Source: a virus
UHGV virus genome: UHGV-0140246
Length of the DNA stretch: 13,672 nucleotides
Strand: one strand, 5' to 3'
The notes under the pieces are model-generated. The model was given only the letters and a program-made list of their open reading frames with translations. It searched no databases and had not been told where the DNA came from. The position numbers were made by a program, and so were the translations under genes. Shown piece by piece: positions 2,289-13,672 of the stretch (position 1 is the first letter of the stretch; each line of letters begins with the position of its first letter).

Positions 2289-2360
2289 TCCTATCTTCAA
2301 GACTTCCCCATCGCTAAATAACGTATACCTGTTCTTAATCAGAAGTATACGGTGATACTC

Positions 2361-2549
2361 ATGCATTTAGAAAAGATGACCCGCAAAGAAGCTGCTGAGC
2401 ATTTGGGGGTAAGTGTCCAGACGCTGGCGAATTGGGCCTGTACTGGCAAGGTAAAAATCCCTTTTCATAAGCTGGGGCGCAAAGTGCTGTATATGCGCTC
2501 TGATCTCGATGCTTATCTTGCATCCACTCGCAGAACGCAGACGGTGTAA
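2361..2549 (+). CDS. Small helix-turn-helix DNA-binding protein, excisionase/Xis-like; start uncertain (GTG 2352, ATG 2361 or ATG 2376)
   Basis: ORF translation contains MTRKEAAEHLGVSVQTLANWACTGKVKIPFHKLGRKVLYMRSDLDAYL, the pattern I associate with excisionase-type winged HTH proteins. Confidence 0.6.
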   Translation: MHLEKMTRKEAAEHLGVSVQTLANWACTGKVKIPFHKLGRKVLYMRSDLDAYLASTRRTQTV

Positions 2550-2559
2550 GGGGGGAGTG

Positions 2560-2763
2560 ATGGCTCAATTTGACCGCATAATCCGTGAGGCTGAATGCAG
2601 TAAGTTAACCGGGGTTAGCCGTACCACTCGCTATGAACTGGAGAAAAAAGGGAGCTTTCCGTCTCGCCGTAATCTTGGTGGGCGTTCTGTAGGTTGGTTG
2701 CTTTCCGAAGTTATGGACTGGGTGCAAAACCGTGACCGAGTTAATTCAGGTAAGGCAGCATAG
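2560..2763 (+). CDS. alpA: AlpA-family phage transcriptional regulator
   Basis: Internal ATG at 2560 preceded by GGGGGAG Shine-Dalgarno; translation MAQFDRIIREAECSKLTGVSRTTRYELEKKGSFPSRRNLGGRSVGWLLSEVMDWV fits the AlpA pattern (LTG-SR-T-Y, G-FP, GGRSV-W, EV-W). Confidence 0.7.
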   Translation: MAQFDRIIREAECSKLTGVSRTTRYELEKKGSFPSRRNLGGRSVGWLLSEVMDWVQNRDRVNSGKAA

Positions 2764-2776
2764 GGGGAGTGATGGC

Positions 2777-2808
2777 ACATAAAACAAAGGCGACCGGGGG
2801 CGGTCGCC
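2777..2808 (-). terminator. Candidate rho-independent terminator for the leftward (minus-strand) transcript
   Basis: Perfect 8-bp GC-rich stem GGCGACCG/CGGTCGCC with a 4-nt loop at 2789-2808; on the minus strand it is followed by TTTGTTTTAT (complement of 2779-2788). Confidence 0.45.
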
Positions 2809-2902
2809 AATGGATACACACTAAACTTGAACGCATCACCAACAATGCCACATTTGCGGCTGGTGGGCAATGTGATCAGTGTGCTGGCTTGCTGGTTGGC
2901 TG

Positions 2903-3085
2903 TCAGCCTTTGGGTTCTATGCCTTCTTTGCGTAGCTTATCACGACAAGCATTTTTTACCCATGAGCTGAAATTACCAGGCCCTGCAACTTCGTTAATTT
3001 GTTGCAACAATGTGTCTTCGAAGCGGATGTTTTTCTTTGTGCTGCCGGAGCGATCAAATTTTGGTTTCACATTTTCTTCTTGCAT
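2903..3085 (-). CDS. Small divergently transcribed DNA-binding-like protein (possible ribbon-helix-helix fold); candidate repressor
   Basis: 60-aa minus-strand ORF MQEENVKPKFDRSGSTKKNIRFEDTLLQQINEVAGPGNFSSWVKNACRDKLRKEG; predicted strand-helix-helix arrangement is my inference; its start codon abuts the palindromic operators. Confidence 0.5.
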   Translation of the reverse strand: MQEENVKPKFDRSGSTKKNIRFEDTLLQQINEVAGPGNFSSWVKNACRDKLRKEGIEPKG

Positions 3086-3107
3086 TGGTACGTACCATCG
3101 TTATAAA
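3080..3107 (+). promoter_or_regulatory. Candidate sigma70 promoter for the rightward icd-to-primase operon
   Basis: -35-like TTGCAT (3080-3085), 16-bp spacer, -10-like TATAAA (3102-3107); the spacer is occupied by operator copy 1; the -35 match is weak. Confidence 0.35.
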
Positions 3108-3130
3108 CTGAAATCAAATGGTACGTACCA
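3086..3130. promoter_or_regulatory. Two copies of a perfect 12-bp palindrome TGGTACGTACCA (3086-3097 and 3119-3130), centre-to-centre 33 bp; candidate paired operators
   Basis: Read directly; each copy is its own reverse complement; located between the divergent minus-strand gene and the icd-like gene. Confidence 0.65.
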
Positions 3131-3160
3131 CATTAAAAATACGCAACCATTAAATACAGC

Positions 3161-3195
3161 GAAGCCCGGCAGTGCGGGAACACTAACCGGGCTTC
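3161..3195. other. Perfect 9-bp inverted repeat GAAGCCCGG-N17-CCGGGCTTC in the leader upstream of the icd-like gene; candidate RNA stem-loop or protein-binding site
   Basis: Read directly from sequence; no U-tract follows on the + strand. Confidence 0.4.
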
Positions 3196-3230
3196 TAACC
3201 ACCAACGATAGAAAGCGTATCGAGGTAGCT

Positions 3231-3434
3231 ATGTTAAATCATACCACACACCCGCAAGGGCGGGACTCGCACAACCTGAATAAATACATCTGGCGTTTTA
3301 TCGCCCTGAGCACGGCACAACCGCGCGTGATTACCATTGAGGCCACCAGCGAACAGGAAGCACGCCAGCAATCCCCGGCTGGCTGCGTGATGGTATTCGC
3401 CGCCCGTATTCGTCAGGGGGTGTGCCATGCCTGA
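3231..3434 (+). CDS. Icd-like small protein (host cell division inhibitor-like, as found in P4-type elements); assignment from memory
   Basis: Internal ATG at 3231 of the 2769-3434 ORF, preceded by GAGG at 3222-3225; translation MLNHTTHPQGRDSHNLNKYIWRFIALSTAQPRVITIEATSEQEARQQSPAGCVMVFAARIRQ. Confidence 0.5.
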   Translation: MLNHTTHPQGRDSHNLNKYIWRFIALSTAQPRVITIEATSEQEARQQSPAGCVMVFAARIRQGVCHA

Positions 3435-3747
3435 TATGTCAAATTACCAGTACCTGATTAATCCGCATTTTAACTGTGAGCATGATATTGCTAAAAAGGT
3501 TTATTCCGCTGCGGATGGGGCTACTGACAATATATCAATGGCTGTTGCGTCAATTGGTAGCCTGATGTGGCATGCGTCAGAAAATGAGGACTATGACGAA
3601 AAGGCCATGCGCATTGATATGGGTAATATTGGTTTGTTACTGGCAATGCTTGGACATTTTGATATTTCGTTACGGTGCACCATTGAAAATGCCACAGATG
3701 CATTAAATGCTATAAAGAAAGCGAATACTGATTCAAATCGGGGATAA
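3427..3747 (+). CDS. Hypothetical protein (106 aa)
   Basis: ORF overlaps the icd-like stop (ATGCCTGA); AGGGGG Shine-Dalgarno 7 nt upstream; lower GC than neighbours by eye. Confidence 0.55.
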   Translation: MPDMSNYQYLINPHFNCEHDIAKKVYSAADGATDNISMAVASIGSLMWHASENEDYDEKAMRIDMGNIGLLLAMLGHFDISLRCTIENATDALNAIKKANTDSNRG

Positions 3748-3753
3748 ATAATC

Positions 3754-4053
3754 ATGAGAACATATTTATCTGGCTTGACTGCCAGCGGTTATGCACACCC
3801 CAAAATTATCCCCGGCGCTATTTATCTGGATAAGAACGGTAACAGAGTAACGGTAAAAGAACTGATGTTTGACCGTGTGTATTTTATTCGTGATGGCTAT
3901 TCATTTCATAGTTCGCTGAACGTGGAGATCTTTATTAGCAGATTCAGGCGGGAAATCCCGCTTTCCAGAAAAAACCATGTGTCACGTGTGAATGTGGATA
4001 AAAAACTACAGGAACTGAAAAACATGATTGCCGCGTGGAGAGAGCAGAAATGA
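3754..4053 (+). CDS. Hypothetical protein (99 aa)
   Basis: ORF whose stop overlaps the start of the primase gene (ATGA at 4050-4053). Confidence 0.55.
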   Translation: MRTYLSGLTASGYAHPKIIPGAIYLDKNGNRVTVKELMFDRVYFIRDGYSFHSSLNVEIFISRFRREIPLSRKNHVSRVNVDKKLQELKNMIAAWREQK

Positions 4054-5867
4054 AAAAAGCGCCAAATTTAAAACACCAGCCGCGTGACAAAATGACGGAA
4101 GTCATCATTTTTGCGGGTAGTGATGCGTGGGCACATGCGAAGCAGTGGCAGGAACAGGACGGGCGACTGGCTGGCGATAACGTGCCTCCTGTCTGGCTTG
4201 GAGAGCAACAACTTGCCGAACTGGACAACCTGCAAATCGTACCGGACGGACGCTATCGCGTGCGTCTCTATCAGGCGGGGTTATTGCGTCCGGGGCTTGT
4301 TAATACCATCGGGCAGAAACTGGCAGCGGCAGGTGTCAGGGATGCTGATTATTACCCTGAAGGAATGCACAGCCAGAAACGGGAGAACTGGCGCGAATAT
4401 CTGGAACGTGAGCGGGGAGAGCTGGCGGAAAAGAAAAAGGTAGTTGAACTGCCTGTAAAGAAAAAAGAGCGGGTAAAAGACGATAACGCTTCATCACTGG
4501 CGCTTAACCAGATGGGAGCAAGTCAACGCGGCGAAGTTCTCCTGGCACATTATGGCGGTGAACTGGCGATTCATGCCGACTCTGACACTGTTCACCATTA
4601 CAACGGCGTTGTATGGGAGCCGGTTCAGGATAAAGAGTTACAGCGTGCTATGGCGCAGATTTTCATTGATGCGGAGATCAGCTATTCGCAGAACGCCATT
4701 AAATCGGCGGTCGATACCATGAAGTTAAGTTTGCCTGTAATGGGGAATACAGCCCGTAACCTGATTGGATTCAGTAACGGGGTATTTGATACCAGAACAG
4801 GTAATTTTCGGGAGCATAACAAAAACGACTGGTTGTTAATTGCCAGTGAATTACCTTTCAGCCCACCAGCAGAGGGGGAAACGCTGGCAACACATGCGCC
4901 GAATTTCTGGAAGTGGTTACGCCGTTCGGTGGCTGAGAATGACCGCAAGGCGGATCGCGTACTGGCTGCATTATTCATGGTGCTGGCGAACCGGTACGAC
5001 TGGCAGTTATTCATTGAGGTAACAGGTCCAGGGGGAAGTGGTAAAAGCGTGATGGCGGAGATTTGCACCATGCTGGCGGGTAAGGCCAACACAGTATCGG
5101 CAAGCATGAAGGCGCTGGAAGATGCAAGGGAACGCGCGTTAGTGGTTGGCTTTTCGCTGATTATCATGCCGGATATGACCCGCTACGCTGGTGATGGGGC
5201 AGGGATTAAGGCTATTACAGGCGGTGACAAGGTGGCAATTGACCCGAAACACAAAGCCCCCTACTCAACGCGTATTCCGGCAGTAGTGCTGGCGGTTAAC
5301 AATAACGCCATGTCATTCAGTGACCGCAGTGGGGGGATCTCACGTCGTCGGGTGATATTCAATTTTTCGGAAGTTGTACCGGAGAACGAACGTGATCCAA
5401 TGCTGGCGGAAAAAATAGAAGGTGAGCTGGCGGTAGTGATTCGCCATCTGCTTACACGGTTTGCTGACCAGGACGAAGCCAGACGCCTGTTATATGAGCA
5501 GCAGAAATCTGAAGAAGCACTGGCGATAAAGCGAGAGGGGGATTCGCTGGTGGACTTCTGCGGCTATCTCATGGCGTCGGTAATGTGTGATGGCCTGTTA
5601 GTGGGTAATGCTGAAATTGTGCCATTCAGCCCACGCAGGTATCTCTATCATGCCTATCTGGCTTATATGAGGGCACATGGGTTTGGTAAACCTGTAACAC
5701 TGACGCGCTTCGGTAAAGATATGCCGGGGGCAATGGCGGAATATGGCAGGGAGTATATGAAACGGAAAACGAAGCACGGTTTGCGTTCAAACGTGACACT
5801 GACGGAGGAATCAGAAGACTGGATGCCATCATGTGTATCGGTCACTAATGACGATAGCAAAAATTAA
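4050..5867 (+). CDS. Primase/helicase replication protein (P4 alpha-like, P-loop NTPase); start probably ATG 4050 rather than GTG 4035
   Basis: About 605-aa ORF; Walker A motif TGPGGSGKS in the central region; GGAGAG Shine-Dalgarno before ATG 4050; an iteron cluster lies immediately downstream. Confidence 0.7.
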   Translation: MKKAPNLKHQPRDKMTEVIIFAGSDAWAHAKQWQEQDGRLAGDNVPPVWLGEQQLAELDNLQIVPDGRYRVRLYQAGLLRPGLVNTIGQKLAAAGVRDADYYPEGMHSQKRENWREYLERERGELAEKKKVVELPVKKKERVKDDNASSLALNQMGASQRGEVLLAHYGGELAIHADSDTVHHYNGVVWEPVQDKELQRAMAQIFIDAEISYSQNAIKSAVDTMKLSLPVMGNTARNLIGFSNGVFDTRTGNFREHNKNDWLLIASELPFSPPAEGETLATHAPNFWKWLRRSVAENDRKADRVLAALFMVLANRYDWQLFIEVTGPGGSGKSVMAEICTMLAGKANTVSASMKALEDARERALVVGFSLIIMPDMTRYAGDGAGIKAITGGDKVAIDPKHKAPYSTRIPAVVLAVNNNAMSFSDRSGGISRRRVIFNFSEVVPENERDPMLAEKIEGELAVVIRHLLTRFADQDEARRLLYEQQKSEEALAIKREGDSLVDFCGYLMASVMCDGLLVGNAEIVPFSPRRYLYHAYLAYMRAHGFGKPVTLTRFGKDMPGAMAEYGREYMKRKTKHGLRSNVTLTEESEDWMPSCVSVTNDDSKN

Positions 5868-5878
5868 ACTTATGGAAT

Positions 5879-6111
5879 AACTGTTCACCACTGTTCACCC
5901 TGTCATAAATATCTTTTGTATCAGTATGTTATAGGGTGAACAGTTATTTATGAACTGTTCACCAAACTATTCACTGTTCACCTTTTTGATTGTTTATTGA
6001 GCTTCAAGGGTGAACAGTGGTGAACAGTTGGTGAATAGTTTTTGTGAAACTGTTCACCCCTTAACATTATGAATTAAAAGATAAAATATCAAAAGGTGAA
6101 CAGGTGAAGGG
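5879..6111. repeat. Iteron cluster, candidate origin of replication: about 11 copies of TGTTCACC / GGTGAACA in both orientations within an AT-rich intergenic region
   Basis: Forward copies at 5882-5889, 5892-5899, 5956-5963, 5975-5982, 6051-6058; reverse copies at 5935-5942, 6009-6016, 6019-6026, 6095-6102; degenerate copies at 6030-6037 and 6104-6111. Confidence 0.75.
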
Positions 6112-6154
6112 TTAAAACGCAAAAATTTTAATTTACTGCTGTGAGATAAAGCCT

Positions 6155-6400
6155 ATGACAGCGAAGCACACAAAAAAATCACAATCGCACGCCCTTGATT
6201 TGACGGAACACTGGTTAAGGGTGTCGATAAAAATCATCGACCGCAACGCCGGGGAAGGATATGCGAAAGCACATCCCGAACTGATTAGCTCATTCATGAC
6301 AACGGCAGCTGCAAACTTTGCCACGCTGACAGAACGGGAGATTGCCGAAGCGGAACAGGTGACAACCATCAACGTTAAAACCGGAGAGCAGACAGCATGA
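6155..6400 (+). CDS. Hypothetical protein (81 aa)
   Basis: ORF co-oriented with the operon; its stop overlaps the SSB start (ATGA at 6397-6400); weak ribosome-binding site. Confidence 0.45.
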   Translation: MTAKHTKKSQSHALDLTEHWLRVSIKIIDRNAGEGYAKAHPELISSFMTTAAANFATLTEREIAEAEQVTTINVKTGEQTA

Positions 6401-6819
6401 CAGCACAGATAGCAGCTTACGGGCGGCTGGTGGCTGACCCGCAGTTAAAGACCACCAGCAAGGGCACACAAATGGCTATGGCAAGCATGGCGGTCCACCT
6501 GCCGTGCAATCAGGCAGATGACGGACAGGCGACGATGTGGTTATCCGTCCTGGCGTTTGGCAGACAGGCCGACGCACTGGCAAAACACCACAAAGGCGAG
6601 CTGGTGAGCGTGGCGGGTAACATGCAGGTAAGCCAGTGGACAGGCCAGAACGGGGAAACGCGGCAGGGCTGGCAGGTTATCGCAGACAGCGTAATCAGTG
6701 CCAGAACGGCGCGACCTGGTGGCAAAAAAGGCCAGCAGGGTCAGGCTACTGACGCTCTAAATAGGGCTAAGCAACAGGCGGGGAATGATGATCCATACGG
6801 GGATAACATACCCTTTTAG
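6397..6819 (+). CDS. Single-stranded DNA-binding protein-like (SSB-like)
   Basis: 140-aa ORF; N-terminus MTAQIAAYGRLVADPQLKTTSKG resembles the start of an SSB OB-fold; Gly/Gln-rich linker; C-terminus DDPYGDNIPF resembles the acidic SSB tail ending in IPF. Confidence 0.65.
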   Translation: MTAQIAAYGRLVADPQLKTTSKGTQMAMASMAVHLPCNQADDGQATMWLSVLAFGRQADALAKHHKGELVSVAGNMQVSQWTGQNGETRQGWQVIADSVISARTARPGGKKGQQGQATDALNRAKQQAGNDDPYGDNIPF

Positions 6820-6836
6820 CGATAACAGGGGGATAC

Positions 6837-7085
6837 ATGCCAGTGACATTTGAAGAAGTTCAGCAACATAAAAAGTTTCATGGTATTGATGATCTGGAAA
6901 CCACGACAGCAAAAAAATATCGCCGTCTGCTTTCTTCCGATGCGTTATTTGTTGTGGATCATCATGATTTTCTGCGCAGCTCACTGACCGGGGAAATTTT
7001 CGCAACCAACCGTGAGCAGGTGGAAGCGATGATCGAATATTTGTGGAAAATAAGGCGCAGAATGCGCGATCCCGTGAAACAGTAA
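6837..7085 (+). CDS. Hypothetical protein (82 aa)
   Basis: ORF preceded by GGGGGA Shine-Dalgarno; followed 10 nt later by a strong terminator. Confidence 0.5.
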   Translation: MPVTFEEVQQHKKFHGIDDLETTTAKKYRRLLSSDALFVVDHHDFLRSSLTGEIFATNREQVEAMIEYLWKIRRRMRDPVKQ

Positions 7086-7094
7086 AGCGATAAA

Positions 7095-7122
7095 GGCCCG
7101 GATTTTTCCCGGGTCTTTTTTT
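7095..7122 (+). terminator. Rho-independent terminator ending the replication operon
   Basis: Stem GGCCCGG / CCGGGTC (7095-7101 and 7109-7115) with a 7-nt loop, followed by seven T (7116-7122). Confidence 0.7.
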
Positions 7123-7359
7123 CAGGTTTTGTAAATTATTTGTTCGTGGTTGTTTCTGGCTGTTCAGTGATTCTGGCTGATATTTACATACTGATTTTTA
7201 TGTATATGTTGGCGTGTGGCACTCAGACGTGAGCCGCCACAATGCCGCCTGACCCCCTGCGCGATGCCGGGTTGATCTGCGAGATGCCGAGAGTGTCGGG
7301 CGGCGCTCCCTCCGTGTTGGTTTCACGTCCTGAATCTTAACCAATACGAGAAAACCTTC

Positions 7360-8529
7360 ATGAAGAAATTAATCGAACTCCGCCAGCAAAAAACCGCCCT
7401 GAAAAACCAGATGCGATCCCTGCTGGAAAAAGCCGACAGTGAAAACCGCAGCCTGAACGATGACGAGGGCAAACAGTTTGATGAACTGCGTGCAAAAGCC
7501 GACTCCCTCGACACAGAAATTTCCCGCCTCGAGTCTGTGGCTGATGAAGAACGCAGCAAGCCAGGAACGGGCATCCAGAAATTATCATCTGATGAATTGC
7601 GTAACTACATCGTAACCGGAGATGTGCGATCACTGTCCACCAGCACTGACAGCGGCAGGGATGGCGGATATACCGTAATTCCTGAGCTCGATCGCGAAGT
7701 CATGCGCCAGCTACAGGATGACAGTGTTATGCGCGTGATCGCGACCGTGAAGACTGCAAAATCAAATGAGTTTCAGAAACTGGTTTCCACTGGCGGCGCA
7801 ACTGTAGGACGAGGCACAGAAGGCAGCGCACGCAGTGAAACCAACACCCCGAAAATTGAACGCGTAACCATCAAGCTGAATCCGATCTACGCCTACCCGA
7901 AAACCACGCAGGAAATCCTTGATTTTTCAGAGGTGGATATTCTGGGCTGGTTATCCTCCGAAATTGCCGACACGTTCGCCAGCACCGAAGAGGATGATTT
8001 TGTTAATGGCGACGGTAACGGCAAGCCGAAAGGCTTCATGGCTTACACCCGTGCGGCGACCAGTGACAAAACCCGCGCTTTTGGCACCATTGAAAAAATG
8101 GTAGCGGCAAGTGGAACCGCCATTACAGCGGACGAACTGATCGACATTCTCTACAAGCTGAAAGCGAAATACCGCAAAAATGCCGTCTGGGTGATGAACT
8201 CGGGCACGGCAGGGACACTACAGAAGCTGAAAAATGAGAACGGCGATTATATCTGGCGCGACAGCCTTAAAGAAGGTGCGCCGGATATGTTGCTTGGTCG
8301 TCCTGTTTACTGCCTGGAGTCCATGCCGGACATCGGCGCAGGAAAAGCACCGCTAGCGGTTGGCGATTTCAGTCGTGGTTATTTCATCGTTGATCATGTA
8401 ACAGGGATTCGCACCCGACCGGACAACATTACTGAACCCGGATTCTACAAGGTCCACACGGATAAATATCTGGGCGGTGGTGTGGTGGATTCAAACGCCA
8501 TCAAAATTCTGGAAATGAAAGCTGGCTAG
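7360..8529 (+). CDS. Major capsid protein, HK97 family
   Basis: 389-aa ORF; N-terminal coiled-coil-like region (MKKLIELRQQKTALKNQMRSLLEKAD...) followed by GGYTVIPELDREVMRQLQDDSVMRVIATVKT, typical of HK97-fold capsid proteins. Confidence 0.8.
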   Translation: MKKLIELRQQKTALKNQMRSLLEKADSENRSLNDDEGKQFDELRAKADSLDTEISRLESVADEERSKPGTGIQKLSSDELRNYIVTGDVRSLSTSTDSGRDGGYTVIPELDREVMRQLQDDSVMRVIATVKTAKSNEFQKLVSTGGATVGRGTEGSARSETNTPKIERVTIKLNPIYAYPKTTQEILDFSEVDILGWLSSEIADTFASTEEDDFVNGDGNGKPKGFMAYTRAATSDKTRAFGTIEKMVAASGTAITADELIDILYKLKAKYRKNAVWVMNSGTAGTLQKLKNENGDYIWRDSLKEGAPDMLLGRPVYCLESMPDIGAGKAPLAVGDFSRGYFIVDHVTGIRTRPDNITEPGFYKVHTDKYLGGGVVDSNAIKILEMKAG

Positions 8530-8540
8530 TCATGAGTAAG

Positions 8541-8563
8541 GAGGAGGCTGCGGCCTCCTTTTT
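8541..8563 (+). terminator. Hairpin plus T-tract immediately after the capsid gene; candidate partial terminator/attenuator
   Basis: Stem AGGAGGC / GCCTCCT (8542-8548 and 8553-8559), 4-nt loop, then TTTT (8560-8563). Confidence 0.45.
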
Positions 8564-8583
8564 CAGCTTTATGGAGTACACCG

Positions 8584-9144
8584 ATGAAAAACACCGATTT
8601 TGAAATCCGCACATCTGAACTGACCGCCAGCAATAAAAAGCTGGTGGGGTATGCCGTTCGCTGGAACAGCCTTTCAGAAATTATCTGGGACGAATTCCGC
8701 GAACAGTTCACGCCGGGGGCTTTTGCTGACTATCTGGCGGCGGGTAATGATGTGCGCTGCCTGTATGAGCATGACTATACCCAACTGCTGGGGCGCACCA
8801 AATCCGGCACTCTGGTACTGACTGAGGATAACACCGGGTTACGTTTTGAACTGACACCGCCGGATACCCAGCTTGGAAAAGATGTGCTTACGCTGGTGGA
8901 GCGTGGCGACATTACAGGAATGAGCTTTGGTTTTCGCGCATTATGCGAGGAGTGGAGTATCGCGCAAAAACCGTATTTGCGTACCGTAACCGCCGCTGAA
9001 CTCCGTGAAATCACAATAACGTCGATGCCTGCTTATCCAGAATCTGGCGTGGAGATTGCCCACCGTTCGTTGTTTGCACAGCACCCTGAATTATGCCCGA
9101 CAGGAAATAATCGTCATCGCTGGTCTGAGCTGGCGGGGTTGTGA
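8584..9144 (+). CDS. Prohead maturation protease, HK97 family
   Basis: 186-aa ORF; LVGYAVRWNSLSEIIWDEFREQFTPGAFADYL and ITGMSFGFR motifs match my recollection of HK97-type prohead proteases. Confidence 0.75.
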   Translation: MKNTDFEIRTSELTASNKKLVGYAVRWNSLSEIIWDEFREQFTPGAFADYLAAGNDVRCLYEHDYTQLLGRTKSGTLVLTEDNTGLRFELTPPDTQLGKDVLTLVERGDITGMSFGFRALCEEWSIAQKPYLRTVTAAELREITITSMPAYPESGVEIAHRSLFAQHPELCPTGNNRHRWSELAGL

Positions 9145-9145
9145 T

Positions 9146-10360
9146 ATGTGGTGGCCTTTTAGTCGTAAAAAAAGCGAGCAGCGTAACCTGTCCATTGATG
9201 ATTTTCTGGCGCTGTCCGGCGTACCGAATACCGGATCCGGAGAATATGTTTCTGCCGGGACGGCTGAATCATTGCCTGCAGTGATGAATGCGGTTTCTGT
9301 CATCGCTGAGGCGGTGGCCACGATGCCGTGTTATCTGTATCTGGTACGTAATGACAAGGGCAGGGAGGCGCGGGAATGGCTGGACAGTCACCCGGTAGAT
9401 ATTCTGCTGAATGAGCAGCCTAATTCGTGCCAGACACCTTACCAGTTTAAACGCACAATGATGCGTCACTGCCTGCTGAACGGTAACGCCTATGCGGTTA
9501 TTGAGTGGGGGCAGGACGGGCAGCCAAAATCACTTCATCCTTATGCGCCGGGGTGTGTTGTACCGGAACGCACAGGCGCACACAAATACCGCTATACCAT
9601 CACCGAACCCTATACAGGAACGGTGCGCACGTATTTACAGGAAGAAGTTCTGCATCTCCGCTATGCCTCGGATGATGGCTTTCTGGGGCGCTCCCCCGTC
9701 ACGATTTGCCGTGAGGCACTTGGGCTTGGCCTTGCTCAACAGCGCCACGGAGCCAGCATTATGAAAGATGGCATGATGGCGGCAGGGATTATCACGTCAG
9801 GCGAATGGCTGGACGGCGTGAAAGGTAAACAGGCATTGGATGCTCTGGAACGCTACAAGGGGGCGAAAAATGCCGGAAAAACGCCAATCCTTGAAGGGGG
9901 CATGGATTACAGGCAACTGGGAATGAGTAACCAGGATGCGGAATGGCTGGCCTCCCGTCGCTTCTCCATTGAAGACATCGCCCGCATGTTCAACGTATCG
10001 CCTATTTTTCTGCAGGAATACAGCAACAGCACCTACAGCAATTTCAGCGAGGCAAGCCGCGCGTTTCTGACCATGACAATGCGCCCGTGGCTGGCGAACT
10101 TCGAACAGCAAATCAAGGCCGCTTTGCTGGTGGCTTCTCCCGTACCTGGTACCCGTTATCTGGTTGAGTTTGATTCAGCCGATTTATTACGCGCCACACC
10201 CACCGAACGTTATGCCACGTATGAGAAAGGGATTAAGAACGGGATCATGAATCCGAACGAAGCCCGTGAGCGTGAGGGTATGCCGCCGCGTGAAGGTGGT
10301 GATGAGTTCAGCCAGGCATGGAAACAGACTGTGGAAATTAAAGGGAGAAAAGATGATTGA
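9146..10360 (+). CDS. Portal protein, HK97 family; start taken as ATG 9146, 1 nt after the protease stop
   Basis: About 404-aa product; LPAVMNAVSVIAEAVATMPCYLY motif near the N-terminus; the ORF is open from 9056 but that would overlap the protease gene by about 90 nt. Confidence 0.75.
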   Translation: MWWPFSRKKSEQRNLSIDDFLALSGVPNTGSGEYVSAGTAESLPAVMNAVSVIAEAVATMPCYLYLVRNDKGREAREWLDSHPVDILLNEQPNSCQTPYQFKRTMMRHCLLNGNAYAVIEWGQDGQPKSLHPYAPGCVVPERTGAHKYRYTITEPYTGTVRTYLQEEVLHLRYASDDGFLGRSPVTICREALGLGLAQQRHGASIMKDGMMAAGIITSGEWLDGVKGKQALDALERYKGAKNAGKTPILEGGMDYRQLGMSNQDAEWLASRRFSIEDIARMFNVSPIFLQEYSNSTYSNFSEASRAFLTMTMRPWLANFEQQIKAALLVASPVPGTRYLVEFDSADLLRATPTERYATYEKGIKNGIMNPNEAREREGMPPREGGDEFSQAWKQTVEIKGRKDD

Positions 10361-10655
10361 AGCCAGAATTACACCTGATGAAGTCAGGGCACATCTTCGA
10401 CTTGATGATGATTTATCCGGTGAAGGCGAACTTCTGAAAATGTATACCGATGCGGCGCTGGAAGCCTGCCAGAAGCATATCGGGAAACGTTTTGAAGACG
10501 GGCTGGAATTTACCCCGGCAATGCGTGTTGGTTGCCTGATGTACATCGCTTTCCTGTACGAGAACCGGGAAGCGGTTTCACCAGTGGAGCACTCGGAACT
10601 GCCTATGGCTATTTCTGCGCTCTGGTCAGTTTATCGTGACGTAGGGGTGTACTGA
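10353..10655 (+). CDS. Head-tail connector protein (gp6-like)
   Basis: Internal ATG at 10353 preceded by GGGAGAAAAG; translation MIEARITPDEVRAHLRLDDDLSGEGELLKMYTDAALEACQ resembles the gp6-like connector family; overlaps the portal stop. Confidence 0.65.
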   Translation: MIEARITPDEVRAHLRLDDDLSGEGELLKMYTDAALEACQKHIGKRFEDGLEFTPAMRVGCLMYIAFLYENREAVSPVEHSELPMAISALWSVYRDVGVY

Positions 10656-11095
10656 TGCCGTGGCAACCATTAAGGCGATGCACTGAGCCTGGCTGTAATA
10701 AGCGCGTGAAGTCCGGCAAGTGTGAAGAGCACAGGCGGGCTGCATGGCGTGCAGAGGATGCCAGACGGGGACACCGCCGCGCGCGCGGGTATTCCCGACA
10801 GTGGGACAAATACCGCGCCCTGTACCTGAGCAAAAACCCGTTATGCGTGCGTTGTCTGGCTAAGGGGATTTATACGCCAGCTCTTGTGGTGGATCACATC
10901 ATTCCCATCAATGGCGGCGGTGATGTTCTCTTCTGGCCTGAGTGGAATCACCAGGCATTGTGCCAGACGTGCCACAACCGTAAGACGACACGGGAAGATC
11001 CAGCCACGAAAGCAAACCGTAAAGCGGGCATGTATCGCGAGCAGGAAGAACGGGCGGCACACCGTAACGACTGGATGTATGGCGATGATGACTGA
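10655..11095 (+). CDS. HNH endonuclease (phage packaging-associated)
   Basis: 146-aa ORF; Cys-rich N-terminus; HNH-like core DHIIPINGGG...NHQALCQTCHNRKT; located immediately upstream of the terminase genes. Confidence 0.8.
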   Translation: MPWQPLRRCTEPGCNKRVKSGKCEEHRRAAWRAEDARRGHRRARGYSRQWDKYRALYLSKNPLCVRCLAKGIYTPALVVDHIIPINGGGDVLFWPEWNHQALCQTCHNRKTTREDPATKANRKAGMYREQEERAAHRNDWMYGDDD

Positions 11096-11264
11096 ACAGG
11101 AGCAAACCAGGCTGATACGTGGACTGATAAGGCAGCGTGACACATGGAAGACACAGGAGACAGAGCACAAAGCCAACAGGACAGGGCGCACAAAACGCAC
11201 CACAGCGAAGCGATTAACCGACCGTGACCGCGAGGTCATGGAATGTTTTCGCAATCGCTGGTGA
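11079..11264 (+). CDS. Possible small basic protein overlapping the HNH 3' end in another frame; existence uncertain
   Basis: ORF from ATG 11079 (alternative ATGs at 11085 and 11088) encoding MAMMTEQEQTRLIRGLIRQRDTWKTQETEHKANRTGRTKRTTAKRLTDRDREVMECFRNRW; no clear Shine-Dalgarno. Confidence 0.3.
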   Translation: MAMMTEQEQTRLIRGLIRQRDTWKTQETEHKANRTGRTKRTTAKRLTDRDREVMECFRNRW

Positions 11265-11383
11265 GGCCGTCAGAGGGGGTGGGGGTGGTTTTCAGGACGA
11301 AACCGTCCCTGCCGGACACCGACCGCCCCCTCAAATTTTTGTGCACGGTAATTTTTTTGAAAATAATTGGGCGAAAAAAGAAC
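11265..11383. other. Candidate cos/packaging-signal region between the HNH gene and terS
   Basis: G-runs CAGAGGGGGTGGGGGTGG (11271-11288); nested inverted repeats GAGGGGG (11273-11279) / CCCCCTC (11326-11332) and GGACG / CGTCC (11295-11308); followed by AT-rich T-tracts 11336-11357. Confidence 0.4.
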
Positions 11384-11740
11384 ATGGCAAGACCACCAAA
11401 AGCCCCCGCTTACCTGGATGAAATCGCGGTCAGGCAGTGGAAGGAAAAATCGCGCCAGCTTTCCGGGCGGGAAGACCTTACCCCCGCCGACTGGAGCAAT
11501 CTGGAACTGTATTGCGTTAACTACTCCATATACCGCAAAGCCGTCGAAGACCTTGCGACGCGCGGGTTCAGCATTGTTAACAGTCAGGGCAGCGAGAGCA
11601 GAAACCCCGCCCTGAGCGCAAAGGCTGACGCAGAAAGAATAATGATCAAAATGGCTTCTTTGCTGGGTTTTGACCCGGTAAGCCGCCGCAGAAATCCACC
11701 GGAAACAGAGGAAGAGGACGAGCTTGACTGCCTGGCATGA
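11384..11740 (+). CDS. terS: Terminase small subunit, P27 family-like
   Basis: Internal ATG at 11384; N-terminus MARPPKAPAYLDEIAVRQWKE matches what I recall of P27-family TerS; about 118 aa; the ORF is open from 11243 but that part overlaps the cos-like region. Confidence 0.7.
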   Translation: MARPPKAPAYLDEIAVRQWKEKSRQLSGREDLTPADWSNLELYCVNYSIYRKAVEDLATRGFSIVNSQGSESRNPALSAKADAERIMIKMASLLGFDPVSRRRNPPETEEEDELDCLA

Positions 11741-13385
11741 GTACGCAGAAGGCGTAAAAAACGGCAAAATTACGGCCTGTAAACGACTGAAACAGGCCGT
11801 TAAACGGTATTTTTCTGACCTTGAAAACCCCCTTTACACGTTCGATCCGGAGGTCGTTGAGCGGTTTATTGCCTTTTCCAGGGTGTGTCCGCACGTAAAA
11901 GGCGCAATGCGTGGTAGCCCCATTGAGCTGGAGCCGTGGCAGCAGTTCGCCTTTGCGTGCATCCTGGGCTTTAAGGTTAAGGCCACCGGACGGCGCAAAT
12001 ACACCAGCGCATTCATTGAAGTACCGCGAAAAAATGCCAAATCCACGGTCGCCGCTATCCTGGCTAACTGGTTTCTGGTTATGGAAAACGGGCAGCAGGA
12101 TATTTACACCGCCGCCGTGAGTCGTGATCAGGCGCGGATCGTGTTTGATGATGCGCGTCAGATGTGCCTTTTATCCCGACCGTTACGAAAGCGGGTAAAT
12201 ATTCAGGCACACAAGGTGATACACCCGAAAACCAACAGCCTGTTAAAGCCACTGGCAGCAAAAGCAGCAACCATTGAAGGTACAAACCCGAGTCTTGCCA
12301 TTGTGGATGAATATCACCTGCACCCTGACAACGGGGTTTATTCCGCGCTTGAACTGGGAATGGGGGCACGCCCAGAGGGGCTGTTATTTGCCATCACCAC
12401 ATCGGGGAGCAACGTTGTTTCAGCCTGTAAACAACACTACGACTATTGCTGCCAGATACTGGATGGTGAAGAGGTGAACGAATCCATGTTCGTGCTGATT
12501 TATGAGCTGGATGATGAAAGCGAGGTTGACGATCCGGCGATGTGGATAAAGGCGAATCCCAATATCGATGTTTCCGTAGATCGTGAAAAACTGGCCTCAA
12601 CCATCCAGAAAGCGCGGGGTATTCCGTCGCAGTGGGTGGAAATGCTCACCAAGCGATTCAATATCTGGTGTCAGGGGGCTACGCCGTGGATGGGTAACGG
12701 TGCATGGGCTGAGTGCGCCGGAACGTTCACGGAGGAAGATTTACACGGTCAGGAGTGTTACGCGGGGCTTGATTTATCATCCACAAGCGACATCTCCAGC
12801 GTGTGCTATGCCTTTCCGGTTGGTAAAACCATTATGCTGGTTTCTCGTCACTATCTGCCGGAATTTCAGCTACAGAACCCCGCCAATAAAAACCGCGCCA
12901 TCTATCGCCAGTGGGCAAAGGCGGGCTGGATACGCACAACACCGGGTGACTGCATTGATTATGACCGTATCCGTGATGACATCATGCTGGATGCAGAGAA
13001 TTTCAATATCAGGCTGGTGGGCTTTGATACGTGGAACGCCACGCACCTGAGAACGCAGTTACAGGGGGCAGGCTTTGAGGTGGAGCCGTTCCCTCAAACC
13101 TACCTTCGTTTCAGTCCGGCGGCGAAATCGTTCGAGGTTTTTGTTAACCGGAAGGTGATTGTGCATCGTGGTGATCCTGTGCTGGCCTGGTCAATGAGTA
13201 ATGTTGTGATGCAGAGTGACGCGAACGCCAATATCAAGCCGAACAAGAAAAAATCATCCAACAAGATAGACCCGAGCGTTGCGGCGCTGATGGCGTTTGG
13301 CACATTCCAGGCTGAGCATGAGGAATTTGCATTTGATATGAGCGACAGCCAGAAAGAGCGACTAGCGGCGTTTGATGGGGTATGA
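11724..13385 (+). CDS. terL: Terminase large subunit; apparent TTG start at 11724 with GAGGA Shine-Dalgarno 5 nt upstream
   Basis: 553-aa ORF overlapping the terS 3' end by 17 nt; first in-frame ATG lies about 60 codons further in; size and position after terS fit a large terminase. Confidence 0.8.
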   Translation: MTAWHEYAEGVKNGKITACKRLKQAVKRYFSDLENPLYTFDPEVVERFIAFSRVCPHVKGAMRGSPIELEPWQQFAFACILGFKVKATGRRKYTSAFIEVPRKNAKSTVAAILANWFLVMENGQQDIYTAAVSRDQARIVFDDARQMCLLSRPLRKRVNIQAHKVIHPKTNSLLKPLAAKAATIEGTNPSLAIVDEYHLHPDNGVYSALELGMGARPEGLLFAITTSGSNVVSACKQHYDYCCQILDGEEVNESMFVLIYELDDESEVDDPAMWIKANPNIDVSVDREKLASTIQKARGIPSQWVEMLTKRFNIWCQGATPWMGNGAWAECAGTFTEEDLHGQECYAGLDLSSTSDISSVCYAFPVGKTIMLVSRHYLPEFQLQNPANKNRAIYRQWAKAGWIRTTPGDCIDYDRIRDDIMLDAENFNIRLVGFDTWNATHLRTQLQGAGFEVEPFPQTYLRFSPAAKSFEVFVNRKVIVHRGDPVLAWSMSNVVMQSDANANIKPNKKKSSNKIDPSVAALMAFGTFQAEHEEFAFDMSDSQKERLAAFDGV

Positions 13386-13672
13386 CGAGAATGACTGAAA
13401 CTGATCTACTAAAAATAATTCGCCGCATTACCGGAATCAGTCAGCAGCCTGACGAACAGGCTACACAGCCGGACAGCGTGATAGCCGAAAATTACGCGCG
13501 TGTGGTGGCTGAGGTAATGCGCCGTGACGGTATTGAGCTTAACGGCGTGGATATGCGCAACATACGAACCAGAGTTCTTGAGTTGCTGGCATACCGTCGC
13601 CGTTCTCAACAACGGAGGGAGAGCGCGAAAAATACTTACCAGTGGAGGAAGCCGGAGCACTTACGGCGGTAA
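13382..13672 (+). CDS. Hypothetical protein (96 aa), last gene of the packaging operon within the window
   Basis: ATG overlaps the terL stop (ATGA at 13382-13385); stop TAA at 13670-13672. Confidence 0.5.
   Translation: MTRMTETDLLKIIRRITGISQQPDEQATQPDSVIAENYARVVAEVMRRDGIELNGVDMRNIRTRVLELLAYRRRSQQRRESAKNTYQWRKPEHLRR

What the first reader, a model, noticed from the sequence alone, without database searches (positions are those of the whole stretch)
2903..3130. Divergent small DNA-binding-like gene with two perfect 12-bp palindromic operators: candidate master switch
The only minus-strand gene in the window encodes a 60-aa protein with a pattern consistent with a ribbon-helix-helix repressor. 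Its start codon abuts two perfect self-complementary 12-mers, TGGTACGTACCA, spaced 33 bp centre to centre (about three helical turns). One copy lies between candidate -35 and -10 elements of the rightward promoter that would drive the icd-to-primase operon. This is the textbook architecture of a repressor-controlled divergent promoter and may be the element that keeps the island silent until a helper signal arrives. As far as I recall, repressors of this kind are not a well-described feature of enterobacterial PICIs.
Basis: partly seen in the sequence, partly recalled or inferred. Interest (0 to 1): 0.65.

Follow-up and report, generated by a model that had tools for sequence, protein, structure and literature searches.

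The report
Satellite's small repressor and its operators
A 60-residue DNA-binding-type protein of a previously uncharacterised family, together with two 12-bp palindromes and an antisense RNA, most likely locks the promoter of the replication operon in an E. coli phage satellite; no repressor had been identified for such Gram-negative satellites.

Summary
A 60-aa ORF lies at 2903-3085 (-). Two identical perfect palindromes, TGGTACGTACCA, lie at 3086-3097 and 3119-3130, 33 bp apart.

The ORF is a real, conserved gene of the function-unknown family DUF3950 / YlcI-YnfO (dN/dS about 0.1). The window is a capsid-forming PICI-type satellite.

In about 55 loci from other species the same gene is preceded by two TGGT-N4-ACCA 12-mers, 33-35 bp apart. 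Their inner bases change together with protein residues 17 and 19. In a profile alignment these residues line up with the base-contacting strand residues of Arc.

A natural swap also links gene and sites. A satellite 98-99% identical on both sides has replaced exactly 2880-3163, both gene and palindromes, while keeping AlpA unchanged.

O1 fills the spacer of a conserved rightward promoter (TTGCAT-16/18-TATAAA/TAAACT). O2 covers the -10 of a leftward promoter.

New here: the icd-like leader carries a SymR-family antisense RNA on the minus strand (about 3231-3149). In at least 26 of the fetched loci, all from other Enterobacteriaceae, the same cassette guards a SymE toxin gene.

The repressor-operator reading is well supported by comparison. 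The "helper-sensing master switch" role is untested. No binding or expression experiment exists.

The parts
2903..3085 (-). 60-aa gene of the DUF3950 / YlcI-YnfO family; predicted ribbon-helix-helix repressor
   Evidence: Pfam DUF3950 33 bits (cut-off 25). NCBIfam YlcI/YnfO 31.1 bits (cut-off 30). RefSeq annotates the identical gene as a YlcI/YnfO family protein. dN/dS is 0.07-0.2 against orthologues. hhalign to RHH proteins gives 69-75% probability. AF2 gives an extended N-terminus plus helices 24-34 and 39-53.
3086..3097 (.). Operator O1, TGGTACGTACCA; abuts the start codon and fills the spacer of the rightward promoter
   Evidence: A conserved TGGT-N4-ACCA site lies at -12/-11 in relatives, and its inner bases covary with protein residues 17 and 19.
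3119..3130 (.). Operator O2, TGGTACGTACCA; overlaps the -10 of the leftward promoter and about +4 to +16 of the rightward transcript
   Evidence: A conserved site lies at -45 in relatives.
3080..3109 (+). Predicted rightward promoter P_R: -35 TTGCAT (3080-3085, complement of the Met-Gln codons), -10 TATAAA (3102-3107) or TAAACT (3104-3109); predicted start about 3114-3116
   Evidence: Read from the sequence. A TTGCAT-16/18-TAnnnT arrangement is present in the listed relatives, and a perfect TATAAT occurs in L002, L006 and L011-L017. It was not reported by the generic scan. No transcript data.
3118..3146 (-). Predicted leftward promoter P_L for the small gene: -35 TTGCGT (3146-3141), 17-bp spacer, -10 TACCAT (3123-3118, made of the O2 half-site plus T); predicted start about 3111
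   Evidence: Read from the sequence. TTGCnT/TTGATA-17-TACCAT recurs in L002, L004-L006 and L011-L017. It is not evident in the SymE-linked loci. No transcript data.
3149..3231 (-). SymR-family cis-antisense RNA complementary to the leader, Shine-Dalgarno sequence and start of the icd-like gene
   Evidence: Rfam SymR 34.8 bits, below the gathering score of 61, with similar hits in L004 and L066. In a 22-sequence alignment, 11 of 21 pairs carry compensatory changes, with many G-U pairs that work only on this strand. RNAalifold gives -17.6 against -7.7 kcal/mol. MFE is -39.5 kcal/mol, z = -4.1. A model built from the alignment finds the annotated K-12 symR at full length, E 2e-4.
3238..3246 (-). 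Predicted extended -10 (TGGTATGAT) of the antisense-RNA promoter, inside codons 3-6 of the icd-like gene
   Evidence: Read from the sequence. It sits at the same position as the symR -10 mutated by Kawano et al. (CATTCT in symE; PMC1891008). The SymE-linked loci here have CATTCTACC, which gives TAGAAT.
3231..3434 (+). icd-like gene (67 aa), first gene of the rightward operon
   Evidence: NCBIfam phage_ICD_like 68.6 bits (cut-off 25). RefSeq gives the same start in L070.
3427..5867 (+). Rest of the operon: 106-aa ORF, DUF4222 protein, primase
2789..2808 (-). Terminator-like hairpin (8 pairs, 7 G-C, followed by TTTGTTTTAT) downstream of the small gene
2880..3163 (.). Exchangeable cassette (small gene plus operators plus promoters), replaced as a block in a near-identical satellite
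   Evidence: blastn against L001 gives 99.1% identity over 1-2879 and 98.2% over 3164-13672, with no similarity between them. L001 has no TGGT-N4-ACCA site. L070 shares 2770-13672 but has a different left arm.
2352..2763 (+). Upstream HTH_17 gene (2352-2549) and AlpA-family gene (about 2560-2763), convergent with the small gene
   Evidence: Pfam HTH_17 49.6 bits and Phage_AlpA 61.7 bits. RefSeq annotation.

Best explanation
The 60-aa protein is a ribbon-helix-helix-type repressor of the DUF3950 / YlcI-YnfO family. I propose that dimers bind the two TGGTACGTACCA sites through the N-terminal strand K17-K18-N19-I20-R21-F22.

O1 occupies the spacer of the rightward promoter that heads the icd-like / DUF4222 / primase operon. 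O2 covers the -10 of the protein's own leftward promoter and the first bases of the rightward transcript. Occupancy would therefore silence the replication operon and also autoregulate the repressor.

A second lock is a SymR-family antisense RNA. It is made from a promoter inside the icd-like gene and pairs with the leader, ribosome-binding site and start codon.

The repressor gene, operators and promoters form an exchangeable cassette with allele-specific sites. This resembles an immunity region. The same design guards SymE toxin genes in other enterobacteria.

Status of each step:
- Shown by sequence and comparison: the gene is real; the sites are conserved; protein and sites co-vary; gene and sites are co-inherited; the RNA structure is conserved.
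- Inferred: the fold, dimer binding, promoter positions, and repression rather than activation.
- Speculative: how the lock is opened. One possibility is AlpA-driven transcription reading through from upstream, convergent with the repressor gene. Another is a helper protein that binds the conserved C-terminal tail GIEPKG.
For: 1. The gene is real. It passes the curated Pfam and NCBIfam cut-offs. Two database searches find homologues: 31 representatives at 50% identity and 1297 clusters at 90% identity. dN/dS is about 0.1.

2. The sites are conserved. Two 12-mers lie at about -45 and -12 in about 55 of 62 loci, from Pantoea, Serratia, Erwinia, Xenorhabdus, Photorhabdus, Proteus, Enterobacter, Citrobacter, Gilliamella and others.

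3. Specificity covaries:
- STKKNIRF goes with an ACGT core (8 loci).
- STMKHIRF goes with AGTT/AACT (8 loci).
- STMKNIRF goes with AGGT/ACCT (about 30 loci).
- STRRTIRF goes with TGGTTCGAACCA (3 loci).
- STSKIIRF goes with TGGTATAAACCA (2 loci).
- R21 and the outer TGGT/ACCA are invariant.
hhalign places K17, N19 and R21 opposite Arc Q9, N11 and R13. From my own knowledge, those are Arc's base-contacting residues.

4. Natural swaps separate the candidates. L001 keeps Int, HTH_17 and AlpA at 99-100% identity, but it has lost the palindromes together with the gene. L070 keeps both the gene and the palindromes with a different left arm.

5. Other alleles at the same position each carry their own palindromes. 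These lie around a near-consensus promoter, with one copy in the spacer (TTGACG-17-TAAATT with GTGTTCAACAC repeated three times; TTGACA-17 with TGTGCGCACA).

6. Fold: AF2 secondary structure; hhalign at 69% and 75%; the L001 allele matches RHH_1 over the full model at E 0.02, and matches the family profile at 88%.

7. Antisense RNA.

8. Context: 8 of 8 sampled E. coli loci with the same leader have a divergent small gene (7 annotated YlcI/YnfO) in front of icd-like and primase genes.
Against: - There is no binding, expression or transcript-start data of any kind.
- The rightward promoter in this window scores only 8 of 12 and was not called by the scan.
- The leftward promoter is not recognisable in the SymE-linked loci.
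- The small gene has no Shine-Dalgarno sequence.
- One locus (L061) has the KKN strand motif but a GCGC core.
- The loci are related by descent, so the covariation reflects about five or six independent switches, not dozens.
- Published work on related satellites shows that induction needs AlpA, and no repressor has been reported (PMC6092414).
Confidence: 0.7

Rival explanations
1. The cassette is a dedicated lock on a toxic first gene, in the style of a toxin-antitoxin system. The icd-like gene here and SymE elsewhere would be that gene. It would not be the life-cycle switch of the satellite. Induction would run through AlpA, whose transcription reads across or past the cassette, and the repressor would only prevent leaky expression in the quiescent state.
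For: At least 26 loci have the same repressor family, the same two operators and the same leader in front of a SymE_toxin gene (PF08845, 52 bits) and no primase. The leader carries a SymR-family antitoxin RNA. Kawano et al. already noted MetJ/Arc-type factors next to some SymE genes (PMC1891008). AlpA is required for induction of related satellites (PMC6092414). On the + strand, only weak terminator-like sites lie between alpA and the icd-like gene.
Against: In satellites the controlled operon also holds the primase, so repression necessarily silences replication too. The satellite-linked alleles carry a conserved C-terminal tail (GIEPKG-like) that the SymE-linked alleles lack, which hints at a satellite-specific function. 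This rival concerns the biological role only. It accepts the same molecular mechanism.
Confidence: 0.35
2. The palindromes are bound by another factor, and the 60-aa protein does something else. The other factor could be AlpA, the HTH_17 protein, a host regulator or a helper-phage protein.
For: A 12-bp perfect palindrome is also typical of helix-turn-helix dimers. Two HTH genes lie just upstream. The RHH fold is not proven.
Against: L001 has 100% identical HTH_17 and AlpA but no such palindrome, and L070 has the palindromes with different upstream regulators. The palindromes follow the small gene into SymE loci that lack AlpA and primase. The inner bases covary with residues of the small protein. 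No LexA box lies nearby.
Confidence: 0.07
3. The protein binds the sites but acts mainly as an activator or a two-way switch. For example, it might repress its own promoter while stimulating the rightward one, or the reverse, as Mnt does at P22 Pmnt/Pant.
For: The two predicted promoters lie in each other's early transcribed region, with starts about 3 bp apart. Blocking one could therefore relieve interference on the other (inferred). The two sites sit differently relative to the two promoters.
Against: O1 lies inside the -35/-10 spacer of the rightward promoter. Other alleles also place a site inside that spacer. This position usually gives repression (general knowledge).
Confidence: 0.1

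Closest known systems
Arc and Mnt repressors with sar RNA in the immI region of phage P22
   Same: Both have small ribbon-helix-helix repressors whose operators overlap closely spaced opposing promoters. Both have a cis-antisense RNA against the ribosome-binding region of the first controlled gene. A weak Rfam sar match fell on the same hairpin (E 1.1).
   Different: Only a distant profile similarity was shown (69-75% hhalign). Arc and Mnt bind 21-bp operators as tetramers (my own knowledge), whereas here there are two 12-bp palindromes 33 bp apart. The cargo here is icd-like plus primase, not an antirepressor.
SymE-SymR type I toxin-antitoxin locus of E. coli K-12 (Kawano, Aravind and Storz 2007, PMC1891008)
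   Same: Both have an antisense RNA that starts at the start codon of the controlled gene, has two hairpins, and has its -10 inside the first codons. A model built from these loci finds K-12 symR. In relatives the cargo is a true SymE-family gene. Both show multi-layer repression.
   Different: K-12 symE is repressed by LexA; here no LexA box is present and a dedicated divergent repressor takes that place. The cargo in the window is icd-like, not SymE. The Rfam SymR score is below the gathering threshold (34.8 against 61).
Stl / Rpr master repressors of Gram-positive PICIs (SaPIs)
   Same: Both are divergently transcribed repressor genes placed between the integration genes and the replication operon, with operators in the intergenic region.
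   Different: Stl proteins are larger and are described in the literature as being inactivated by helper proteins. Here the protein is 60 aa, no Pfam HTH family matches it, and no inducer is known. The known inducing route in Gram-negative PICIs is activation through AlpA (PMC6092414).
immI of phages P1/P7 (c4 RNA - icd - ant)
   Same: The first gene is an Icd homologue, and its translation is controlled by an RNA that covers the ribosome-binding site.
   Different: c4 is processed from the same transcript and acts on downstream sites (my own knowledge). Rfam C4 and isrK gave no match even at E 10. Here the RNA is a true cis-antisense. There is no ant gene downstream.
YlcI (DLP12), YnfO (Qin) and the lambda right-end ORF: DUF3950 proteins of lambdoid phages
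   Same: They belong to the same protein family by HMM.
   Different: The phage copies lie between the lysis genes and cos. The one I examined has a normal Shine-Dalgarno sequence and no upstream palindromes. No function is reported for any of them.

Membership tests
DUF3950 / YlcI-YnfO protein family | Match to Pfam PF13132 and NCBIfam NF041551 above their curated cut-offs | tested here: met
   33 bits against 25, and 31.1 bits against 30. All 27 aligned homologues match DUF3950.
Ribbon-helix-helix (MetJ/Arc/CopG) superfamily | Strand-helix-helix topology in about 45 residues | tested here: met
   The AF2 monomer has residues 1-23 extended, then helices 24-34 and 39-53, with mean pLDDT 75. 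The strand is expected to form only in the dimer.
Ribbon-helix-helix (MetJ/Arc/CopG) superfamily | Sequence or profile similarity to established members | tested here: inconclusive
Ribbon-helix-helix (MetJ/Arc/CopG) superfamily | Dimer whose paired strands read bases in the major groove | not testable with these tools
   Indirect support only. The residues that covary with the operator core (17 and 19) and the invariant R21 align with Arc Q9, N11 and R13. No multimer or DNA-complex prediction was available.
PICI master repressor (Stl/Rpr type) | Divergent from the replication operon, with operators in the shared intergenic region | tested here: met
PICI master repressor (Stl/Rpr type) | Repression lifted by a helper-phage protein; deletion gives helper-independent induction | not testable with these tools
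   No experiment is available. The literature on relatives reports AlpA-dependent induction only.
PICI master repressor (Stl/Rpr type) | Homology to Stl-type helix-turn-helix repressors | tested here: not met
   No HTH family matches the 60-aa protein.
SymE-SymR type I toxin-antitoxin | Cis-antisense RNA matching the Rfam SymR model at the gathering score | tested here: not met
   34.8 bits against 61. The match is nevertheless full length, on the correct strand, and reciprocal: model R1 finds K-12 symR at 30.2 bits, E 2e-4.
SymE-SymR type I toxin-antitoxin | Controlled gene encodes a SymE_toxin (AbrB-fold) protein | tested here: not met
   The window gene is icd-like and has no Pfam match. 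The feature is met in at least 26 related loci.
SymE-SymR type I toxin-antitoxin | LexA box at the promoter | tested here: not met
   No CTGT-N8-ACAG with up to 1 mismatch lies between 364 and 4357.
P1-type immI (c4-icd-ant) | C4 antisense RNA (Rfam RF01695) upstream of icd | tested here: not met
   No C4 or isrK match at E up to 10 in 2750-3450, and none at the gathering score in the whole window.
P1-type immI (c4-icd-ant) | Icd homologue as first gene | tested here: met
   NCBIfam phage_ICD_like 68.6 bits against 25.
Capsid-forming PICI (cf-PICI) | int, alpA and primase plus own capsid, protease, portal, connector, HNH and small and large terminase genes, with no tail genes | tested here: met
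   RefSeq annotation of 98-99% identical copies flanked by chromosomal genes. Helper dependence cannot be tested.

The most novel reading that the evidence does not exclude
This protein family is the missing global repressor of Gram-negative PICIs and cf-PICIs. On this reading, allele-specific repressor/operator cassettes define immunity groups that let several satellites coexist in one cell. The conserved C-terminal tail (GIEPKG-like), found only in satellite-linked alleles, would be where a helper-phage protein (or AlpA-dependent events) inactivates the repressor. Lambdoid helpers carry homologues of the same family, which could in principle poison the dimer.
Probability: 0.25. Interest if true: 0.8.

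Novelty: new variant of a known kind. Interest (0 to 1): 0.62.

Why it matters

This finding offers a concrete and widespread candidate, with predicted operators, promoters and specificity residues. Roughly a quarter of complete E. coli genomes carry the associated leader (1430 of 5426), and 8 of 8 sampled loci carry a divergent small gene.

It assigns a testable function to DUF3950 / YlcI-YnfO, a family of at least about 1300 clusters at 90% identity that has no reported function.

It extends SymR-type antisense control from one K-12 toxin gene to the replication operon of phage satellites.

The allele-specific repressor/operator pairs could also be used as small orthogonal switches.

Tried and rejected
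- PDB sequence searches with the protein, the family profile and the L001 allele gave no meaningful hit.
- Pfam scans of 27 homologues and 7 other alleles for RHH families gave only sub-threshold hits.
- A profile search of the 5.8-billion-protein set returned only DUF3950-annotated proteins among the 120 listed, so it built no bridge to RHH families.
- Rfam C4, isrK and int-alpA gave no hit in the window. I had expected a P1/P4-type C4 RNA upstream of icd and reject that idea.
- A LexA box was searched for and is absent.
The bases to the right of O2 are conserved as the complement of a leftward -35 (TTGCnT), not as a rightward -10.
- I tried to locate the prototype EcCICFT073 in NC_004431 to see whether it carries the gene. 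Two 45-50 kb fetches hit the helper prophage and chromosomal genes only. I abandoned this, so whether the experimentally studied prototypes (EcCICFT073, EcCIEDL933) carry the cassette is unknown.
- The phage homologue in L003 was inspected for upstream palindromes; none were seen.

Full report
**What the window is**

The 13.7-kb window matches E. coli chromosomal islands at 98-99% identity. RefSeq annotates these islands with an integrase, HTH and AlpA regulators, an Icd-like protein, a DUF4222 protein, a primase and an SSB. They also carry a major capsid protein, prohead protease, portal, connector, HNH protein, small and large terminase, and no tail genes. They are flanked by ordinary chromosomal genes. 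This is the gene set described for capsid-forming PICIs (bioRxiv 10.1101/2022.09.08.507074).

**Checking the observation**

The ORF at 2903-3085 (-) encodes 60 aa. TGGTACGTACCA occurs at 3086-3097 and 3119-3130 and nowhere else in the window, even with two mismatches allowed. The first copy begins at the base next to the complement of the ATG, and the centres are 33 bp apart.

**Is the ORF a gene?**

- It passes the curated cut-offs of Pfam DUF3950 (33 against 25 bits) and NCBIfam YlcI/YnfO (31.1 against 30).
- RefSeq annotates identical copies as a YlcI/YnfO family protein.
- An exhaustive search found 31 representatives at 50% identity. A profile search found 1297 clusters at 90% identity, and the 120 listed are mostly from Enterobacterales and all carry the DUF3950 annotation.
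- Against 60-aa orthologues from Serratia, Erwinia, Rosenbergiella and Xenorhabdus, dN/dS is 0.07-0.2, with a median of 0.12 over 36 pairs and saturated dS.
- The N-terminus MQ(E/D) is conserved, which supports the annotated start.

It is a real gene. No paper in the library assigns it a function.

**Are the palindromes its sites?**

I fetched 62 loci from one-genome-per-species contigs. Almost all have two 12-mers of the form TGGT-N4-ACCA, at about -45 and -12/-11 from the ATG, 33-35 bp apart. The 21 bp between the two sites diverge freely. The outer TGGT/ACCA is constant. The inner four bases differ between lineages and track the protein's residues 17-19:

| Strand motif | Operator core | Loci |
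|---|---|---|
| STKKNIRF | ACGT | 8 |
| STMKHIRF | AGTT/AACT | 8 |
| STMKNIRF | AGGT/ACCT | about 30 |
| STRRTIRF | TGGTTCGAACCA / TGGTTCGCACCA | 3 |
| STSKIIRF | TGGTATAAACCA | 2 |

R21 is nearly invariant. One outlier, L061 from Aliiglaciecola, has KKN with a GCGC core. The loci are related by descent, so this amounts to about five or six independent switches. Even so, the pattern is what a cognate protein/site pair predicts.

Two natural swaps separate the candidates (protein identities).

- L001 is 99.1% identical to the window over 1-2879 and 98.2% over 3164-13672. Its Int, HTH_17 and AlpA are 100% identical. Between these stretches it carries an unrelated 58-aa allele and no TGGT-N4-ACCA site anywhere.
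- L070 shares 2770-13672 at 98.8%, including both palindromes. It has a different integrase, a different HTH protein and a Bro-type gene on the left, and it sits at another chromosomal site.

The palindromes therefore travel with the small gene and not with AlpA.

**Fold**

AlphaFold (27-sequence alignment, pLDDT 75) gives an extended N-terminal segment followed by helices 24-34 and 39-53. This is what a ribbon-helix-helix monomer looks like without its partner.

Profile-profile comparison with nine classical RHH proteins gives 69% probability (E 4.5e-5), and 75% with a broader alignment. The register puts K17-K18-N19-I20-R21-F22 opposite Arc Q9-F10-N11-L12-R13-W14. The covarying residues 17 and 19 and the invariant R21 therefore fall at the positions that, to my knowledge, contact bases in Arc.

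**Promoters (inferred only)**

On the + strand, TTGCAT (3080-3085) is the complement of the conserved Met-Gln codons. It is followed after 16 bp by TATAAA, or after 18 bp by TAAACT. Relatives have TTGCAT-16-TATAAT (L002, L006, L011-L017) or TTGCAT-18-TAGnnT. O1 fills this spacer, and O2 would lie at about +4 to +16.

On the - strand, TTGCGT-17-TACCAT (3146-3118) recurs as TTGCnT/TTGATA-17-TACCAT in many relatives. Its -10 is made of the O2 half-site. The two predicted starts (about 3114 and about 3111) are 3 bp apart, so each promoter lies in the other's early transcribed region.

The generic scan did not call either promoter, and the small gene has no Shine-Dalgarno sequence. Other alleles at the same position show the same logic more clearly. 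One example is TTGACG-17-TAAATT with GTGTTCAACAC upstream of, inside and downstream of the spacer. Another is TTGACA-17 with TGTGCGCACA sites.

**A second layer: an antisense RNA**

The 80 nt before the icd-like ATG (3231; same start in RefSeq) are conserved in 1430 of 5426 complete E. coli genomes, far more widely than the flanks.

- Rfam gives a full-length but sub-threshold SymR match on the minus strand (3230-3158, 34.8 bits against 61, E 9e-5). Similar matches occur at the same place and strand in L004 and L066.
- In a 22-sequence alignment, both hairpins are supported by compensatory changes (11 of 21 pairs). They contain invariant or frequent G-U pairs that would be A-C mismatches on the + strand.
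- RNAalifold gives -17.6 kcal/mol on the minus strand against -7.7 on the plus strand.
- The window sequence folds at -39.5 kcal/mol, z = -4.1.
- A covariance model built from this alignment finds the annotated symR of K-12 at full length, with the same 5' end and strand (30.2 bits, E 2e-4).
- An extended -10 (TGGTATGAT, complement of 3238-3246) lies where Kawano et al. mutated the symR -10 (PMC1891008).

I conclude that a SymR-family antisense RNA covers the leader, ribosome-binding site and start codon of the icd-like gene.

**The cassette is portable**

In at least 26 of the fetched loci (Enterobacter, Citrobacter, Kluyvera, Leclercia and others), the same repressor family, two operators and leader precede a SymE_toxin gene (PF08845, 52 bits). 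No primase was detected in these loci.

The SymE-linked alleles are 53-57 aa long. The satellite-linked alleles are 60 aa and end in a conserved (L/E)GI(E/K)PK(G/I/A) tail, which the unrelated-specificity alleles of L001 and L075 also carry.

Kawano et al. noted MetJ/Arc-type factors next to some SymE genes, and conserved upstream RNA-like sequence in others. Here both occur together.

**How common is it in satellites?**

Eight loci picked across the ranking of leader matches all have a small divergent gene directly upstream of the icd-like gene. A DUF4222 gene and a primase, DUF927 or RepA-helicase gene follow. Seven of the eight small genes are annotated YlcI/YnfO.

**Literature**

Fillol-Salom et al. 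2018 state that a global repressor in Gram-negative PICIs is unclear. They report that AlpA is an activator induced by the helper. The cf-PICI paper shows the same AlpA dependence. A survey of Gram-negative PICI organisation mentions Bro-type proteins and C4/isrK RNAs, but not this family. A 2026 survey merely lists "YlcI/YnfO family protein" as an accessory gene of two Enterobacter cf-PICIs.

**Verdict**

The repressor/operator reading is well supported by comparison (about 0.7). It is a classical design, made from an uncharacterised protein family and combined with a SymR-type RNA.

Whether it is the helper-sensing master switch of the island is open (about 0.25). The alternative is that it only keeps a toxic first gene and the primase operon silent until AlpA-driven transcription overrides it.

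Noticed in passing
window 3149-3246 (-): A SymR-family cis-antisense RNA lies opposite the icd-like leader and start codon, with a predicted extended -10 inside icd-like codons 3-6. It is supported by covariation and by a reciprocal covariance-model hit to K-12 symR.
   Followed up: yes
L021-L055 (e.g. L022 about 3590-4000), other Enterobacteriaceae: The same repressor family, two operators (TGGTAGGTACCA / TGGTACCTACCA) and leader precede a SymE toxin-family gene instead of icd-like/primase. In L022 the repressor gene lies about 480 nt from a tRNA-Sec gene.
   Followed up: partly
window 2903-2926 (codons for the last 8 residues): The C-terminal tail GIEPKG-like is present in all 60-aa alleles linked to icd-like/primase, including alleles of unrelated DNA specificity. 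It is absent from the 53-57-aa SymE-linked alleles. Its function is unknown.
   Followed up: partly
window 2769-3434 (+); L066 2371-2778; L068 2371-3111; L001 6161-6460: A long + strand ORF runs in the icd-like frame across the operators and over the small gene. Several RefSeq records extend the Icd-like CDS upstream across the leader and operators. Others start it at the ATG equivalent to 3231. This looks like an annotation inconsistency.
   Followed up: partly
window 5878-6114: The non-coding stretch just after the primase gene is about 70% similar to its own reverse complement over about 235 bp (blastn against L001 and L070). It may be the replication origin.
   Followed up: no
L016 3845-4180 and L033, upstream of 4001: Two YlcI-like genes lie in tandem. 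The upstream copy ends in ...SRGIEPKG, and no palindrome lies directly before the second copy.
   Followed up: no
phage records H56-H85; L003 4016-4216: Lambda and many lambdoid phages carry a DUF3950 homologue between the lysis genes and cos/terminase. In L003 it has a normal Shine-Dalgarno sequence and no upstream palindromes. In several lambda records the matching stretch is unannotated.
   Followed up: partly
P0007 (1338 aa) and P0022 (177 aa): P0007 has 11 separate matches to the 60-aa protein. P0022 is made of repeats such as GGNRSSWNRSACRT. It is unclear whether these are real multi-domain proteins or translated repeats.
   Followed up: no
L012 7352-7417 and L013 4832-4898: Rfam int-alpA RNA (RF02996) matches above its gathering score in two related satellites. 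No such match occurs in the window.
   Followed up: no
L066-L069 and L072-L075, intergenic regions: Other alleles of the divergent small gene carry their own repeated palindromes, up to three per region. Examples are GTGTTCAACAC, TGTGCGCACA, GTGTATTTCAC/GTGAAATACAC and TGTAATTACA. Several lie around near-consensus promoters. Together they look like a set of immunity-like specificities.
   Followed up: partly
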